NCBI GenBank assembly: GCA_035290185.1
Contig: DATDUW010000022.1
Coordinates: 1,579-65,578, forward strand
DNA from: Patescibacteria group bacterium
Lineage (GTDB): Bacteria > Patescibacteriota > Patescibacteriia > UBA9934 > GWF2-40-263
Reading direction: 5' to 3'
DNA: 64,000 nucleotides
Position numbers and translations under genes: made by a program. The notes below the pieces were generated by a model. The model did no database searches. It saw only the letters and a list, made by a program, of their open reading frames with translations, and was not told where the DNA came from. Position 1 is the first letter of the stretch, and each line of letters opens with the position of its first letter. Of this stretch, positions 49,202 to 64,000 are shown one piece after another.

Positions 49202-50902
49202 ATGTTCGACATTTTGTTTTCGATTCCCGATCATTTTTCGTTTGAGGAATTTTTCCGTCAGCCGATCGATGTCATTGTTTTTCAACTGATCCTTTTTTTT
49301 GGTTGGATTCCGTTCGTAGGTCTGCTTGTTTGGGGTTATCTTCAAACGTACCTTCAGTTTAAGCAGGAAAAATACGTGAAGGGGTTAAAGAATATCATGC
49401 TGGCTATTGATGTTCCGCGCATGACCGAACAAAGCCCCAAGGCCATGGAGAACATGTTTGCGACCTTGCAGGGCGCATTTTCTACGCCGACCTGGAAGGA
49501 GAAGTGGATCCTGGGAAAGATGCCGGCGAAATTCAGTTTTGAGATCGTTTCACGGGACGGTTATACGCAGTTTTATGTCCGTTGCGAAACCAAGTACCGC
49601 GATCTCATTGAGGCTGGGATTTACGCCCAGTACCCGGATGCCCAAATTATGGAAGCAGAAGACTACGTGACAGATGTCCCTTCGGAGTTTCCCGATAATG
49701 AATGGAATTTGTGGGGAACGGAACTCACTCTGGCAAAGGACGAGTTTATGCCCATCCGGACCTGGCCCTTGTTTGAGCACCCTCTGACCCAGGAACTCAA
49801 GGATCCGCTGGCTATTATTTTGGAACAGATGGGACGTATGCGTCCAGGAGAGGTTTTTTGGTTTCAGATCCTTTGCGTTCCGTTCAGTCAGGAATGGAGG
49901 GAGGCCGGAATTAAGTATATCAGCAAGATTTACGGAATTAAGGAAACCGTAAAAAAATCCAAATGGGAAGAGGCCTTAGCCTCTACGCTCTGGCTTCCAC
50001 ACCAGGTTTTGGAAGAGACCACCGGAGCGAATTTGCTCGGATTGCTGGGGGTGAATTCCGGCGACCAAGCCAAGCCAAAAGACGAAGACATGTGGAAAGC
50101 CTTTAAAATTACGCTTCAGGAAAAGACTCAAGTGGAGGGGATTGCGAATAAGGTTTCCAAACTGGGATTCAAAACGAAGATTCGCATGGTCTATGCGGCC
50201 AAAAAGTCGGTTTACAGTAAGGGAACCCGCGTGCCCTTTGTCAAAGGCATGCTTTTGCAATTTTCCCACCAGGATTTGAATTCCTTTAAGATGGTGGGTT
50301 CTCAAATGCCAAAGGACGATTATTTTTGGCAGGCATGGTCTTATGGAAAGAGACAGACAAAATTGGTCAAAGCCTACAAGAGGCGTCTCTTGACCGTTGG
50401 TTCCACCCCAAAGATTTTGAACATTGAAGAGCTGGCTACTCTTTTTCACTTCCCGTCTATTACCGTTAAAGCCCCGCTTATTAAGAAGACCGAGGCACGT
50501 CGCGCTGAGCCTCCGGTCGGGCTTCCCGTGGCTTTCGGGGATGAAAAAGATCTTTTTTCGTCTTTTCCTCCGAAAGTTTCTGAACCAGTGTTTGTGCCTT
50601 CCTTGCCGGTAGAACCGCCTTTAGAACCAGAAATCCGTTTGCCTGGGCCGGCGGTCTCACCGCCCATCCGCCGGGTTGATCCCTCGCCCGCGCCAGTCAA
50701 AGAATCTTCTTTTTCCGTTTCTCTTCCTCCGGTTCCAGATCGGAAGAGCACGATTCCGGATGCCATTCGAGTCTTGATTGAGCCGGGAGTGGAATTTGAG
50801 GATGTCATGCGAGCAAGATTAACGGACCAGACAGGAGGAAAAGCATCGAAAACGGACGTGGAAGACGAAGGAGGAAAACCGCCTGAAAATTTGCCCGTGT
50901 AA
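49202..50902 (+). CDS. Membrane-anchored hypothetical protein with Pro-rich C-terminal tail (first gene of the ATPase/Cys-rich cluster)
   Basis: ORF 48980-50902 overlaps secF. The Met at 49202 gives a single N-terminal TM (VIVFQLILFFGWIPFVGLLVWGYL), then ~400 aa of unknown fold, then PxxP-rich tail. Confidence 0.55.
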   Translation: MFDILFSIPDHFSFEEFFRQPIDVIVFQLILFFGWIPFVGLLVWGYLQTYLQFKQEKYVKGLKNIMLAIDVPRMTEQSPKAMENMFATLQGAFSTPTWKEKWILGKMPAKFSFEIVSRDGYTQFYVRCETKYRDLIEAGIYAQYPDAQIMEAEDYVTDVPSEFPDNEWNLWGTELTLAKDEFMPIRTWPLFEHPLTQELKDPLAIILEQMGRMRPGEVFWFQILCVPFSQEWREAGIKYISKIYGIKETVKKSKWEEALASTLWLPHQVLEETTGANLLGLLGVNSGDQAKPKDEDMWKAFKITLQEKTQVEGIANKVSKLGFKTKIRMVYAAKKSVYSKGTRVPFVKGMLLQFSHQDLNSFKMVGSQMPKDDYFWQAWSYGKRQTKLVKAYKRRLLTVGSTPKILNIEELATLFHFPSITVKAPLIKKTEARRAEPPVGLPVAFGDEKDLFSSFPPKVSEPVFVPSLPVEPPLEPEIRLPGPAVSPPIRRVDPSPAPVKESSFSVSLPPVPDRKSTIPDAIRVLIEPGVEFEDVMRARLTDQTGGKASKTDVEDEGGKPPENLPV

Positions 50903-50904
50903 TT

Positions 50905-62437: not shown

Positions 62438-62441
62438 CCCT

Positions 62442-64000
62442 ATGTCCCAAACGCCCAATTTCGATGCCAAAATAAAAACGATTCTCGACGCGACCGTGCC
62501 GGGAGAACGGGTATGTGAACTCACGGGAGAGAAGTGGATGATGGACAAAGAAGAAATCGGCTGGTACCGGAAATTTAACGTTCCGCCTTCCAAATATAGT
62601 CCCTTGGCGCGGATGAAGCTCTTGTACAGCTACTTCATCGTCTTTGATGTGTGGTACAACCGCCATGCGGAAACAGGGAAGCTGTTGGTCTCAACTATTC
62701 ATCCGGCAACAGGTATTCGCGTTCTTCCTGACACGGAGTGGTTTGCGAAGGACTTTTCTAGCCTTGGTTTGAATCTGGATTTGGCAAAGCCTTTTTTTGA
62801 TCAGTTTTATCGGCTTGGCCGAACCGTCCCCCGGGCAGCCGGATACAATTTTGTGCCACCGGAACACTCTCTTGCTTTCCTTTCTTTTGGGGATCGCGAC
62901 AGTTATTTTGTTCTTGCCAGCCAGACGGAGCGGTGTTTTTCTTGCACGAACGTTTCTGTAGCTCAAGACTGCACGGAAGCAGCTATGATGCAGGCAGGAA
63001 CCTTATCTTGTAATATCCTTCATTCCAATCGTATTTTTCAGAGTGCGTTCGTGCGTGAGAGCTATGATTGCATGGATTGTCGTTTCATTTTTGATTGCCG
63101 CGACTGTGAACATTGTTTCATGGCCGCCAACAAGCGGCACAAGAAATATCTTTTTTTCAACGAGCAGTTATCGAAAGAAGAATGGGAACGTCGCGTCGCG
63201 GAAATCGACCTTTCCTCTTGGGTGGTGAGGCAAAAATATGAACAGAAGTTTCATGAATTCCTTGTCGGGGCTCTGTGGCCAGAAAATTTTAACGTAAATG
63301 AAGAAAGATCTTTGGGCGAATATTTAAACGGTTGCATTGACTGTCGCGAGTGTTACTATCTTTCTACTCCCGGTTCTGAACACCTTGATCACGTAACTTA
63401 CGGATTAGGCGACACCCCCTCCCACGACGTTTATCTGAGTACGGGATCGATCAGTTCATCGGATTCTTACAATAGCGTGGGTATCAATCGCTCTTCCCAA
63501 ATCAAGTTTGCCCTTTCCGTCAACGCGGACGGCTTTGACTGTGAGTACTGCGAATCGTGTTTCAACTGTGAACACTGCTTCGGCTGCGTGGGGCTCCGTC
63601 ACAAGAAATTCTGTATTTTGAACAAGCAATACACGGAGGAGGGATATGGGAAGATGCTCGATGAACTCAAATGTGCCATGCTGGAACGCGGTGAGTATGG
63701 CGATCTTCCTCCAGCGAAGTTCTCGACCCAGGTCTGCGAAACATCCGGGCTTGGGGTCGTGTACAGCGCCACACCCGAAGAATGTCGTCTCTTTGGGGCT
63801 GCAGAAATCAAGCCTTCTGACGAGGGAGCCGAAGGACCTGTCTTGGACCCTGTTTCCATTCGTCCCATTTCAGAGATTCCGGATCGAATGACTTCCGAAG
63901 ACAGTGAAACTCTTTCGAAGAAGACCTGGTGGGATGAGTTGATGGGTCGTCGATTCGCCTATCTCAAACCGGAACTGGAACTGTACCAGCGCTTGAAAAT
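62442..64000 (+). CDS. Cys-rich protein, paralog E (3'-truncated by window end)
   Basis: The ATG at 62442 opens a frame with no stop to the window end. Translation MSQTPNFDAKIKTILDATVPGERVCELTGEKWMMDKEEIGWYRKFNVPPSKYSP... stays collinear with paralog B through the C-terminal region. Confidence 0.75.
   Translation, partial: MSQTPNFDAKIKTILDATVPGERVCELTGEKWMMDKEEIGWYRKFNVPPSKYSPLARMKLLYSYFIVFDVWYNRHAETGKLLVSTIHPATGIRVLPDTEWFAKDFSSLGLNLDLAKPFFDQFYRLGRTVPRAAGYNFVPPEHSLAFLSFGDRDSYFVLASQTERCFSCTNVSVAQDCTEAAMMQAGTLSCNILHSNRIFQSAFVRESYDCMDCRFIFDCRDCEHCFMAANKRHKKYLFFNEQLSKEEWERRVAEIDLSSWVVRQKYEQKFHEFLVGALWPENFNVNEERSLGEYLNGCIDCRECYYLSTPGSEHLDHVTYGLGDTPSHDVYLSTGSISSSDSYNSVGINRSSQIKFALSVNADGFDCEYCESCFNCEHCFGCVGLRHKKFCILNKQYTEEGYGKMLDELKCAMLERGEYGDLPPAKFSTQVCETSGLGVVYSATPEECRLFGAAEIKPSDEGAEGPVLDPVSIRPISEIPDRMTSEDSETLSKKTWWDELMGRRFAYLKPELELYQRLK

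What the first reader, a model, noticed from the sequence alone, without database searches (positions are those of the whole stretch)
49202..64000. Candidate uncharacterised system: membrane protein, two soluble T4CP-like ATPases, then a tandem array of at least five diverged cysteine-rich paralogs
Directly downstream of secDF, one strand carries a single-TM protein with a Pro-rich tail and two paralogous TraD/VirD4-family ATPases that both lack the usual N-terminal membrane anchor. Five consecutive ~580-aa proteins follow; the fifth runs off the window. They share a conserved ~55-aa N-terminal module, two internal C-x2-C-x2-C-F-G-C repeats, acidic/basic C-terminal segments and a terminal zinc ribbon. 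The paralogs look about 40-55% identical, so the duplications are old and diversifying. They have no signal peptides. Two ATPases beside a diversified metal-binding family fits a substrate/translocase or effector-cassette arrangement. I do not recognise this family from any described system.
Basis: partly seen in the sequence, partly recalled or inferred. Interest (0 to 1): 0.88.

Follow-up and report, generated by a model that had tools for sequence, protein, structure and literature searches.

The report
Cysteine-rich gene arrays beside VirD4-like ATPases
A large, undescribed family of cysteine-rich proteins, copied many times over in the tiny genomes of Patescibacteria (CPR bacteria), repeatedly sits next to motor ATPases related to those of type IV secretion, which suggests an uncharacterised machine and its clients.

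Summary
Downstream of secDF lie a membrane protein (DUF8128), two soluble VirD4/TrwB-like ATPases (A and B, 39% identical), then tandem ~580-aa Cys-rich paralogs. An identical contig shows at least six, with a transposase-like ORF after the third.

The paralogs match no Pfam or NCBIfam family and no solved structure as a whole. A confident model (pLDDT 94) shows two homologous narrow 12-residue beta-solenoids with Cys clusters, flanked by treble-clef zinc-finger modules.

The family is very large: 3,590 representatives at 50% identity. It occurs in Uhrbacteria, Peregrinibacteria and Gracilibacteria, including UGA-recoded lineages, in arrays of up to ten copies and at least 21 copies in one MAG.

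The link to the ATPases is conserved. At the Uhrbacteria locus, ATPase B and the array are present together (16 loci) or absent together (5 loci). In distant lineages the arrays abut an unsplit ATPase in a different gene order.

The paralogs are old and under purifying selection, not visibly diversifying. Function is untested. My best reading, at about 0.4, is an ATPase-and-client translocation module. I found no literature on the family.

The parts
46117..49118 (+). secD (46117-48195) and secF (48201-49118). These are the conserved upstream neighbours, given as context only.
   Evidence: ORFs. The same secD-secF-DUF8128 order is seen in L017, L019, L025, L055, L057, L072 and L077-L082.
49202..50902 (+). 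Membrane-anchored DUF8128 protein, 566 aa. It has one hydrophobic stretch at aa 21-53, a soluble domain with a VirB4 N-terminal-domain-like fold, and a disordered Pro-rich tail.
50905..53016 (+). ATPase A, 703 aa. It is a soluble VirD4/TrwB-like P-loop ATPase (Walker A at aa 43, Walker B at aa 286). It carries a CxxC-x17-CxxC treble-clef zinc finger at aa 461-496 and a tail with 26% Pro.
   Evidence: Pfam TrwB_AAD_bind 40.9 bits and TraG-D_C 23.1 bits. zf_Tbcl_2 scores 28.5 bits on the isolated domain. The closest PDB sequences are TrwB and DotL. The zinc finger is conserved in 14 of 14 loci and in genomes without paralogs.
53032..54444 (+). ATPase B, 470 aa. It is a soluble paralog of A (39% identity) with no zinc finger and no tail. 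It is present only where the Cys-rich array is present.
   Evidence: Pfam TrwB_AAD_bind 43.6 bits and TraG-D_C 28.4 bits.
54483..56222 (+). Cys-rich paralog 1, 579 aa.
   Evidence: Alignments A1 and A2. AF2 model pLDDT 93.7, pTM 0.91. An identical protein, P0001, is in public data.
56231..56458 (.). Intergenic elements between paralogs 1 and 2. They are a GC hairpin (56231-56252), a short tandem repeat (about 56331-56378) and a 71-nt tRNA-like cloverleaf on the - strand (56388-56458).
   Evidence: ARAGORN calls no tRNA here.
56481..58229 (+). Cys-rich paralog 2, 582 aa. It is 70% identical to paralog 5.
58222..59967 (+). Cys-rich paralog 3, 581 aa. It overlaps the stop of paralog 2 by 8 nt. 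Its orthologs in other genomes are 65-75% identical.
59976..60683 (+). RAYT-like (IS200/Y1 family) transposase ORF, 235 aa, inserted in the array.
   Evidence: NF047646 at 50.9 bits (cut-off 80) and Y1_Tnp at 18.2 bits (cut-off 23), so both are below threshold. The gene is called in L006.
60698..62437 (+). Cys-rich paralog 4, 579 aa. It is the most divergent copy, at 35-40% identity to the others.
62442..64000 (+). Cys-rich paralog 5, cut by the window end. It is 582 aa in the identical contig L006, where a sixth copy follows.

Best explanation
This is one locus of a gene module found across Patescibacteria. It has two parts: a VirB4/VirD4-family ATPase, and tandem arrays of a large Cys-rich protein family that I take to be the ATPase's clients.

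Shown.
- DUF8128 is a membrane-anchored protein whose soluble domain has the VirB4 N-terminal-domain fold.
- The same kind of domain is fused to the ATPase in Bacillus phages and in other CPR lineages. DUF8128 plus ATPase A therefore amounts to a split, membrane-tethered VirB4-like motor.
- This core pair also exists in genomes without the paralogs.
- ATPase B, an old duplicate of A, appears only together with the arrays.
- In distant lineages the arrays abut an unsplit N-domain-plus-ATPase protein instead.
- The paralogs are well-folded proteins that look non-enzymatic. The columns conserved across the family are mostly Cys, aromatic, Pro, Gly and Asn.
- Each paralog has two homologous narrow 12-residue beta-solenoids that end in CxxCxxC(xxC) clusters, with treble-clef modules at both ends. 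Each has three conserved four-Cys groups.
- The C-terminal zinc ribbon of the paralogs is of the same type as the zinc finger on ATPase A.

Inferred.
- ATPase B, or the unsplit form elsewhere, recognises the paralogs, perhaps through their terminal treble-clef modules.
- B docks on the DUF8128/ATPase A membrane platform.
- ATP hydrolysis is then used to move or deliver the paralogs at the membrane, by export to the surface or to a host cell. This parallels how T4SS coupling proteins and T7SS EssC-type ATPases handle substrates encoded next to them.
- The many old, conserved paralogs would then be functionally distinct cargoes.
For: Locus-level co-occurrence.
- ATPase B and the array are both present in 14 loci found through the paralogs and 2 loci found through DUF8128. 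Both are absent in 5 loci found through DUF8128. None is discordant.
- The topology of the B clade mirrors that of the A clade, so the pairing has been kept through the whole radiation of that clade.

Independent recurrence in other gene orders.
- In relatives only about 40% identical, the arrays run into an unsplit ~745-aa N-domain-plus-ATPase protein (L085, L091, L095, L102, L106, L140).
- Elsewhere they are interleaved, as DUF8128-A-paralog-B-paralog x3 (L109, with similar orders in L108, L114, L155).

Enrichment.
- An ATPase lies within or within two genes of 12 of 67 arrays or singletons in the Uhrbacteria set, and 11 of 80 in the distant set. Most of these are arrays of four or more copies.
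- I expect under 1% by chance. This is inferred from about 2 T4CP homologues per Patescibacteria genome (PMC12102498).

Structure and domain evidence.
- Fusion of the DUF8128-like domain and the ATPase is seen in phrog_5156, SPO1 gp27.4 and phage G gp156.
- The zinc-ribbon type is shared between ATPase A and the paralog C-terminus (hhalign probability 92.8%).
- Genes in the window are tightly packed or overlapping on one strand.

Literature.
- Patescibacteria T4CP homologues are mostly far from virB4 and of unknown, possibly exapted, function (PMC12102498).
Against: - No physical or expression evidence exists. Everything rests on gene neighbourhood.
- The B/array pattern in Uhrbacteria maps to a single gain or loss: the genomes lacking B form one sister clade. 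The 16:5 count is therefore not 21 independent observations.
- Most family copies, including long arrays, have no ATPase in the DNA seen. Some sit among cell-envelope genes instead.
- No channel components (VirB6, VirB8 or VirB3) occur in the window.
- The paralogs have no recognisable secretion signal. They look like stably folded, metal-binding cytoplasmic proteins, which are awkward substrates for unfolding-dependent export.
- The paralogs are old, orthologous across genomes and under purifying selection. This is unlike fast-evolving effector repertoires.
- The syntenic block also holds housekeeping genes (secDF, an alpha/beta hydrolase, uppP), so conserved order alone is weak evidence.
Confidence: 0.4

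Rival explanations
1. An intracellular polymer-handling module. The paralogs are adaptors that bind nucleic acid or another polymer, with treble-clef zinc fingers at both ends and conserved basic motifs after each solenoid. They would present substrates to FtsK/HerA-superfamily motors for DNA or RNA uptake, processing or segregation. The paralogs themselves would not be transported.
For: - The ATPases belong to the DNA-pumping VirD4/VirB4/FtsK clade. There are weak NCBIfam hits to the archaeal DNA-import ATPases CedD and CedB.
- ATPase A carries the same type of zinc finger even in genomes without paralogs, which suggests a general ligand.
- The motifs RNRKY and RRKKF are among the best-conserved parts of the protein.
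- Patescibacteria T4SS-like genes are thought to have been repurposed, possibly for DNA uptake (PMC12102498).
Against: - The paralogs are acidic overall (pI 5.5-6.1) and carry a strongly acidic linker.
- It is unclear why 10-20 distinct adaptors would be needed.
- No nuclease, relaxase or ComEC-type gene lies in the neighbourhood.
Confidence: 0.2
2. There is no direct functional coupling. The arrays grow by tandem duplication at permissive chromosomal sites, one of which happens to lie beside the ATPase genes. The synteny is inherited, not selected.
For: - Most copies are elsewhere in the genome.
- The syntenic block contains unrelated housekeeping genes.
- The Uhrbacteria presence/absence pattern is one evolutionary event.
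- The arrays attract insertions of RAYT, Bro-N, ORF6N and NYN genes.
Against: - Adjacency recurs with different gene orders and with different forms of the ATPase in lineages only about 40% identical.
- Adjacency is roughly 20-fold commoner than I expect by chance.
- ATPase B is never seen without the array at the Uhrbacteria locus.
Confidence: 0.15
3. A conflict or defence system. An FtsK/HerA-type ATPase would work with a repertoire of diversified sensor or decoy proteins against phages or competing symbionts.
For: - The best PADLOC hit of both ATPases is mad8, at E 3.5e-18 and 2.6e-17. There are weaker HerA and DndH hits.
- The family is multi-copy and variable in number.
- Mobile-element-type genes lie inside the arrays.
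Against: - The mad8 match is to the generic ATPase core.
- No other defence components are present, and the paralogs hit nothing in PADLOC.
- The paralogs are conserved orthologs under purifying selection.
- The locus is chromosomal and syntenic, not an island.
- The family is essentially absent from viral collections.
Confidence: 0.1
4. The paralogs are metalloproteins in their own right, serving as Fe-S or Zn redox proteins, electron-transfer proteins or metal stores. The ATPase would serve only in their maturation or turnover.
For: - There are three conserved four-Cys groups per protein, and further Cys at i+3 and i+12 spacing along the solenoids.
- The geometry is a narrow solenoid like that of the Cys-stapled beetle antifreeze protein.
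Against: - There is no similarity to known Fe-S or redox folds.
- Few polar catalytic-type residues are conserved across the family.
- VirD4-type ATPases are not known as cofactor-insertion factors (my own knowledge).
Confidence: 0.1

Closest known systems
Type IV coupling proteins (TrwB, VirD4, TraD, DotL)
   Same: The P-loop ATPase core is shared. Pfam TrwB_AAD_bind and TraG-D_C score above their cut-offs. TrwB and DotL are the closest solved sequences. Substrate genes may lie nearby.
   Different: There is no N-terminal membrane anchor. Scores fall far below every NCBIfam TraD/VirD4 cut-off. No T4SS channel genes or relaxase lie nearby. The ATPase comes as an A/B pair plus a separate VirB4-N-domain-like membrane protein.
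VirB4 (TrwK of plasmid R388)
   Different: Here the two halves are separate genes. By sequence the ATPase half is nearer VirD4 than VirB4. There is no sequence-level match to VirB4. DUF8128 has its own TM segment and a Pro-rich tail.
Bacillus phage proteins SPO1 gp27.4 and phage G gp156 (phrog_5156)
   Same: These are single proteins of 825-906 aa that combine a DUF8128-like N-terminal region with this ATPase (E 1.7e-58 and 9.8e-51 to phrog_5156).
   Different: They are phage-encoded and of unknown function. No Cys-rich paralogs were found in phage collections.
Type VII secretion: EssC/EccC ATPase with arrays of substrate genes downstream (analogy, from my own knowledge)
   Different: There are no WXG100 or LXG proteins and no EssB or EsaA genes. 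The clients are 580-aa Cys-rich solenoid proteins, and the ATPase belongs to a different subfamily.
Narrow beta-solenoids: Tenebrio antifreeze protein (1ezg) and curli CsgA (8c50)
   Different: Identity is 7-9% and only one sub-domain is covered. Those proteins are small and extracellular. Here the Cys occur as CxxCxxC clusters inside a 580-aa protein with several other domains.
Treble-clef zinc-finger domains zf_Tbcl (PF13451), zf_Tbcl_2 (PF23477) and TIGR04272
   Same: The ATPase A finger passes the zf_Tbcl_2 cut-off when scanned as an isolated domain. The paralog C-terminus aligns to it at hhalign probability 92.8%. Distant family members hit PF13451 at the N-terminus and PF23477 at the C-terminus.
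   Different: The window paralogs score below both cut-offs. Their N-terminal module has lost three of its four Cys. The function of these Pfam domains is itself unknown.

Membership tests
Type IV coupling protein (VirD4/TraD/TrwB) | P-loop nucleotide-binding domain of the TrwB type with Walker A and B motifs | tested here: met
   TrwB_AAD_bind scores 40.9 and 43.6 bits (cut-off 20.5). TraG-D_C scores 23.1 and 28.4 bits (cut-off 22). The motifs GKTGMGKT/FYLYIDE and GKSGVGKT/FYLYVDE are present.
Type IV coupling protein (VirD4/TraD/TrwB) | N-terminal transmembrane anchor | tested here: not met
   No 19-aa window in either ATPase has mean hydropathy of 1.6 or more. The maxima are 1.28 and 1.24.
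Type IV coupling protein (VirD4/TraD/TrwB) | Scores above the curated NCBIfam TraD/VirD4 family cut-offs | tested here: not met
   The best scores are 38-48 bits, against cut-offs of 250-650.
Type IV coupling protein (VirD4/TraD/TrwB) | Encoded with T4SS channel genes or a relaxase | tested here: not met
   None was found among the larger ORFs of the rest of the window that I scanned against Pfam (30 ORFs, all of at least 150 aa). Published work reports only 148 of 5,713 Patescibacteria T4CP homologues near virB4 (PMC12102498). The rest of the genome was not available.
VirB4 | VirB4-specific N-terminal domain fold | tested here: met
VirB4 | N-domain and ATPase in one polypeptide, with sequence membership in VirB4 families | tested here: not met
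   The two halves are separate genes here. NCBIfam VirB4_CagE gives E 0.016 and 13 bits. The DUF8128 profile finds nothing in PDB sequences. Fused forms exist in phages and other CPR.
PF26449 (DUF8128) | Match to the Pfam model | tested here: inconclusive
   Precomputed annotation assigns PF26449 to this exact protein and to 117 of the 120 listed homologs. The local Pfam copy returned no hit.
zf_Tbcl_2 / TIGR04272 treble-clef zinc finger (paralog C-terminus) | CxxC-x17/18-CxxC with a score above the family cut-off | tested here: inconclusive
   The four Cys are 81-100% conserved. The Pfam score is only 8-15 bits against a cut-off of 27. hhalign to the ATPase A finger gives probability 92.8% and E 3.9e-7.
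zf_Tbcl (PF13451) treble clef (paralog N-terminus) | Four zinc-binding Cys and a match to the model | tested here: not met
   The window paralogs keep only C28 and give no Pfam hit. Distant relatives keep CxxC...CPxCR, score 19-19.5 bits (cut-off 24), and some carry a precomputed PF13451 hit. The window copies are therefore a degenerate form.
Left-handed beta-helix acyltransferases (LpxA, LpxD, GlmU) | Hexapeptide-repeat fold with a global structural match | tested here: not met
REP-associated tyrosine transposase (ORF 59976-60683) | Score above the NF047646 or Y1_Tnp cut-off | tested here: inconclusive
   NF047646 scores 50.9 bits against a cut-off of 80. Y1_Tnp scores 18.2 bits against 23.

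The most novel reading that the evidence does not exclude
Patescibacteria may have a previously unrecognised, lineage-wide export or delivery machine, independent of the canonical T4SS. It would be built from a split (or unsplit) VirB4-like ATPase. Its cargo would be a huge family of beta-solenoid proteins whose 12-residue coils are filled with stacked Cys4 metal sites. That would be a new protein architecture and the main host-interaction repertoire of these episymbionts.
Probability: 0.2. Interest if true: 0.9.

Novelty: new variant of a known kind. Interest (0 to 1): 0.78.

Why it matters
Patescibacteria make up a large share of bacterial diversity, yet how they deal with their hosts is mostly unknown.

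Published work counted about two orphan VirD4-like ATPases per genome and left their role open (PMC12102498). This analysis gives those ATPases three things: a candidate membrane partner (DUF8128, which folds like the VirB4 N-domain), a domain history (split against fused forms), and a candidate set of clients.

The client family has thousands of members and no Pfam model. One MAG carries at least 21 full-length copies. That would be about 3-4% of a 1-Mb genome, which is a heavy investment for organisms under strong genome reduction.

The result turns an open question into direct experiments on interaction, localisation and metal content. If the solenoid-with-metal-core reading holds, it would also add a new structural class.

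Tried and rejected
Searches on the paralogs that gave nothing.
- Pfam, NCBIfam and PADLOC gave no hit; PHROGs gave only a weak match to phrog_15341 of unknown function (best E 1.8e-4).
- A PDB sequence search with the family profile gave only chance-level zinc-ribbon hits.
- Foldseek against PDB gave only low-TM left-handed beta-helix enzymes, so I rejected an acyltransferase reading.
- The afdb50 fold library was not available.

Checks on my own leads.
- I recalled that the N-module resembles zf_Tbcl. Direct scans of the window sequences did not confirm this. It was supported only through distant relatives that keep the Cys.

Selection and mobility.
- dN/dS across paralogs is uninformative because dS is saturated in 14 of 15 pairs.
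- I rejected a phage or plasmid origin for the paralogs. There was no tblastn hit in 50,697 phage records, and only one fragment in IMG/VR.

RNA and regulatory signals.
- Rfam at gathering threshold and ARAGORN found no RNA gene in the window.
- Promoter and terminator scans did not exceed shuffled controls.

Other.
- The unsplit ATPases of distant lineages could not be assigned to type A or type B, since their scores are equal.
- Four literature searches found nothing on the family or on DUF8128.

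
Full report
**What is in the window.** The + strand from 46 kb onward carries the following genes:
- secD (46117-48195) and secF (48201-49118)
- a 566-aa membrane protein (49202-50902)
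- ATPase A (50905-53016, 703 aa) and ATPase B (53032-54444, 470 aa)
- Cys-rich paralogs at 54483-56222, 56481-58229, 58222-59967, 60698-62437 and 62442 onward

It is RAYT-like, but its scores are below the curated cut-offs. A public contig identical to the window (L006) shows the fifth copy complete, a sixth copy and the start of another gene.

The rest of the window is ordinary chromosomal Patescibacteria DNA: a type IV pilus cluster, dnaX, PBP2, a Mur ligase and others. The identical protein in NCBI is labelled 'Patescibacteria group bacterium', and its closest relatives are Candidatus Uhrbacteria.

**The ATPases and the membrane protein.** Both ATPases pass the Pfam cut-offs for TrwB_AAD_bind and TraG-D_C. 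Both have intact Walker motifs and no TM-like segment. They are 39% identical to each other. Their nearest solved relatives by sequence are TrwB and DotL. They fall far below every curated NCBIfam TraD/VirD4 cut-off.

ATPase A also has a CxxC-x17-CxxC treble-clef finger and a Pro-rich tail. The finger scores 28.5 bits against zf_Tbcl_2 when scanned alone and is conserved in 14 of 14 Uhrbacteria loci. ATPase B has neither feature.

An 824-position profile, phrog_5156, independently supports this. Its N-terminal part matches DUF8128, and its C-terminal part matches both ATPases (E 1.7e-58 and 9.8e-51). The corresponding Bacillus phage proteins, SPO1 gp27.4 (906 aa) and phage G gp156 (825 aa), are fusions of the two. 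DUF8128 plus ATPase is thus a split form of a VirB4-like architecture, with the membrane anchor on the N-domain piece.

**The Cys-rich family.** The paralogs hit nothing in Pfam, NCBIfam, PADLOC or PDB sequences. The AF2 model of paralog 1, built from 74 sequences, is very confident (pLDDT 93.7, pTM 0.91). It shows runs of short strands with a 12-residue period at about aa 147-241 and 319-391. Each run is followed by helices, and a C-terminal ribbon closes the protein.

hhalign shows two internal similarities:
- The two solenoid segments are homologous (probability 98%, E 1.7e-13).
- The N-terminal motif EIxWYxKFNVPPS..SP..R is related to the C-terminal motif EIxFYxKxxIAPP..HF..R (probability 95.6%).

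The conserved Cys fall into three four-Cys groups, plus C28:
- C213/C222/C225/C228
- C372/C375/C378/C381
- C548/C551/C570/C573

With a 12-residue coil, four Cys spaced three apart would point inward around one turn. That would fit a metal site on the solenoid axis, but this is inference, because I could not read the coordinates.

The C-terminal ribbon aligns to the ATPase A finger (probability 92.8%). The residues conserved across the wider family are mostly Cys, aromatic, Pro, Gly and Asn. This points to a scaffold or binding protein rather than an enzyme.

**Size and spread of the family.** A full scan of 1.84 billion representatives found 3,590 proteins at E <= 1e-3 and 1,353 at E <= 1e-30. 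A profile of the distant tier finds 5,625 clusters at 90% identity. Named sources include Candidatus Uhrbacteria, Peregrinibacteria and Gracilibacteria. NCBI calls these proteins 'hypothetical' or 'zinc-ribbon domain containing protein'.

Distant members keep an intact N-terminal CxxC...CPxCR treble clef. It hits PF13451 just below threshold, and some members carry a precomputed hit. The Uhrbacteria N-module is therefore a degenerate zinc finger.

Four metagenome loci are readable only with UGA = Gly, and then show arrays of up to seven copies. The family thus extends to the recoded lineages.

Copy numbers are high. There is a ten-copy tandem array in one MAG (L036 plus L027), and at least 21 full-length copies in another. 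The family is essentially absent from phage and viral collections.

**Age of the paralogs.** Within the window the copies are 35-47% identical, except paralogs 2 and 5 at 70%. Each copy has closer relatives in other genomes, at 52-75% identity. The duplications therefore predate the divergence of these genomes, and the position of a given ortholog within the array is not conserved.

dS is saturated for 14 of 15 pairs. The 2/5 pair gives dN 0.21, dS about 2.4 and a ratio of about 0.09. The data show long-term purifying selection on distinct subfamilies and give no sign of diversifying selection.

**Is the link to the ATPases real?** Three lines of evidence bear on this.

1. *The Uhrbacteria locus.* In 14 Uhrbacteria loci found through the paralogs, the order is (secD-secF-)DUF8128-A-B-array. 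In seven loci found through DUF8128 instead:
   - Five have secD-secF-DUF8128-A followed directly by an alpha/beta hydrolase, usually with uppP. They have no ATPase B and no paralogs.
   - Two have A, B and two or three paralogs.

   B and the array are thus present or absent together, 16 to 5, with no discordant case. The caveat is that the genomes lacking B form one sister clade in the ATPase tree, so this is one gain or loss. Within the clade that has B, the B tree mirrors the A tree, so the pairing has been stable.

2. *Distant lineages.* In relatives only about 40% identical to the window family, the arrays again touch ATPases, but in other arrangements:
   - Array followed by an unsplit ~745-aa N-domain-plus-ATPase protein with no TM segment (L085, L091, L095, L102, L106, L140).
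   - DUF8128-A-paralog-B-paralog x3 (L109), with similar interleaving in L108, L114 and L155.

3. *Enrichment.* An ATPase lies inside or within two genes of 12 of 67 arrays or singletons in the Uhrbacteria set, and 11 of 80 in the distant set. Most of these are arrays of four or more copies. Many contigs are truncated, so these are lower bounds. Published work counts about two T4CP homologues per Patescibacteria genome (PMC12102498). On that basis I expect under 1% by chance, which is my inference.

Against a link, most copies are elsewhere in the genome, some among glycosyltransferase or Mur genes. The syntenic block also contains housekeeping genes.

**Other features of the arrays.** TrmB-family regulators, usually on the opposite strand, are the commonest genes inside or beside arrays. 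They occur in 25 of 75 distant loci and are also seen in L164. Bro-N, ORF6N, NYN and RAYT-like genes also occur. One family member is fused to a GNAT domain.

**Interpretation.** The evidence best supports a functional module in which a VirB4/VirD4-family ATPase acts on the Cys-rich proteins. DUF8128 and ATPase A would form the membrane platform, and ATPase B, or the unsplit form elsewhere, would be the component tied to the arrays.

I commit to translocation or delivery of the paralogs at the membrane as the most likely mechanism, at about 0.4. This is by analogy with coupling proteins and with T7SS EssC-type loci.

The main rivals and my estimates are:
- intracellular adaptors for a nucleic-acid motor (0.2)
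- inherited synteny without coupling (0.15)
- a defence system (0.1)
- stand-alone metalloproteins (0.1)

**Comparison with the literature.** Quinonero-Coronel et al. 2025 (PMC12102498) reported 5,713 VirD4-like proteins in 2,918 Patescibacteria genomes. Only 148 were near virB4, and the authors raised possible exaptation. I found nothing in the searchable literature on the Cys-rich family, on DUF8128, or on their association.

I rate the finding as a new variant of a known kind: a VirB4/VirD4-type motor with adjacent client genes, built around a protein family that is itself undescribed.

Noticed in passing
window 56388-56458 (- strand), with 56231-56252 and about 56331-56378: The 258-nt gap between paralogs 1 and 2 holds three elements. 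One is a 71-nt tRNA-like cloverleaf ending ...CACCUCCACCA, with fold z-score -3.4. ARAGORN calls nothing, and Rfam gives only a sub-threshold tmRNA-ends hit (16 bits, E 8e-5). The others are a GC hairpin directly after the stop of paralog 1 and three or four copies of GGTTTAATTGAAT. This may be a decayed tRNA or an old integration site.
   Followed up: partly
window 59976-60683: A RAYT-like (IS200/Y1) transposase ORF is inserted between paralogs 3 and 4. Its scores are below the curated cut-offs. No flanking REP-like hairpins were found; the only inverted repeat lies inside the ORF, at 60367-60404.
   Followed up: partly
window 4246-18647: A type IV pilus cluster (PilB, PilC, PilM and a prepilin peptidase, together with a PAS/HAMP histidine kinase) lies in a stretch with GC 0.41-0.44. 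The rest of the window is about 0.50. Several ORFs of 300-500 aa here have no Pfam hit.
   Followed up: no
window 25359-28994 (- strand): Pyruvate phosphate dikinase-like genes appear as three separate ORFs: PPDK_N (28017-28994) and two proteins that each carry a PEP-utilizers mobile domain (26889-27974 and 25359-26885).
   Followed up: no
window 37535-38284: A 249-aa ORF carries only the Peptidase_M41 (FtsH C-terminal) domain and overlaps other ORFs. It may be a fragment or a frameshifted gene.
   Followed up: no
L148, L150, L152, L153 (metagenome contigs, GC 0.25-0.39): Family members appear as many short fragments under the standard code. With UGA = Gly (table 25) they become full-length tandem genes, up to seven in L153. 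The family therefore exists in recoded Gracilibacteria/Absconditabacteria-type lineages.
   Followed up: yes
L085, L095, L102, L121, L164 and others; also L026, L049, L058, L060, L068: TrmB-family HTH regulators of about 250-370 aa, usually on the opposite strand, are the commonest non-family genes inside or beside the arrays. They occur in 25 of 75 distant loci.
   Followed up: partly
P0359 (731 aa, from the representative search): A family member carries an N-terminal GNAT acetyltransferase domain (Acetyltransf_1, E 3e-8). It is the only domain fusion seen.
   Followed up: no
L164 189-485: A 98-aa protein consisting only of zf_Tbcl plus zf_Tbcl_2 is encoded near an array of eight or more copies. 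It looks like the two terminal modules of the family without the solenoids.
   Followed up: no
L075 (SPO1 gp27.4) and L076 (phage G gp155-gp156): Large Bacillus phages encode the fused DUF8128-like-plus-ATPase protein. In phage G it follows a gene annotated as VirB-like. The function in phages is unknown.
   Followed up: partly
L077-L080, L027, L050, L055, L057, L081: An alpha/beta hydrolase and uppP (BacA) are the conserved genes downstream of the Uhrbacteria locus, whether or not ATPase B and the array are inserted between them and ATPase A.
   Followed up: yes
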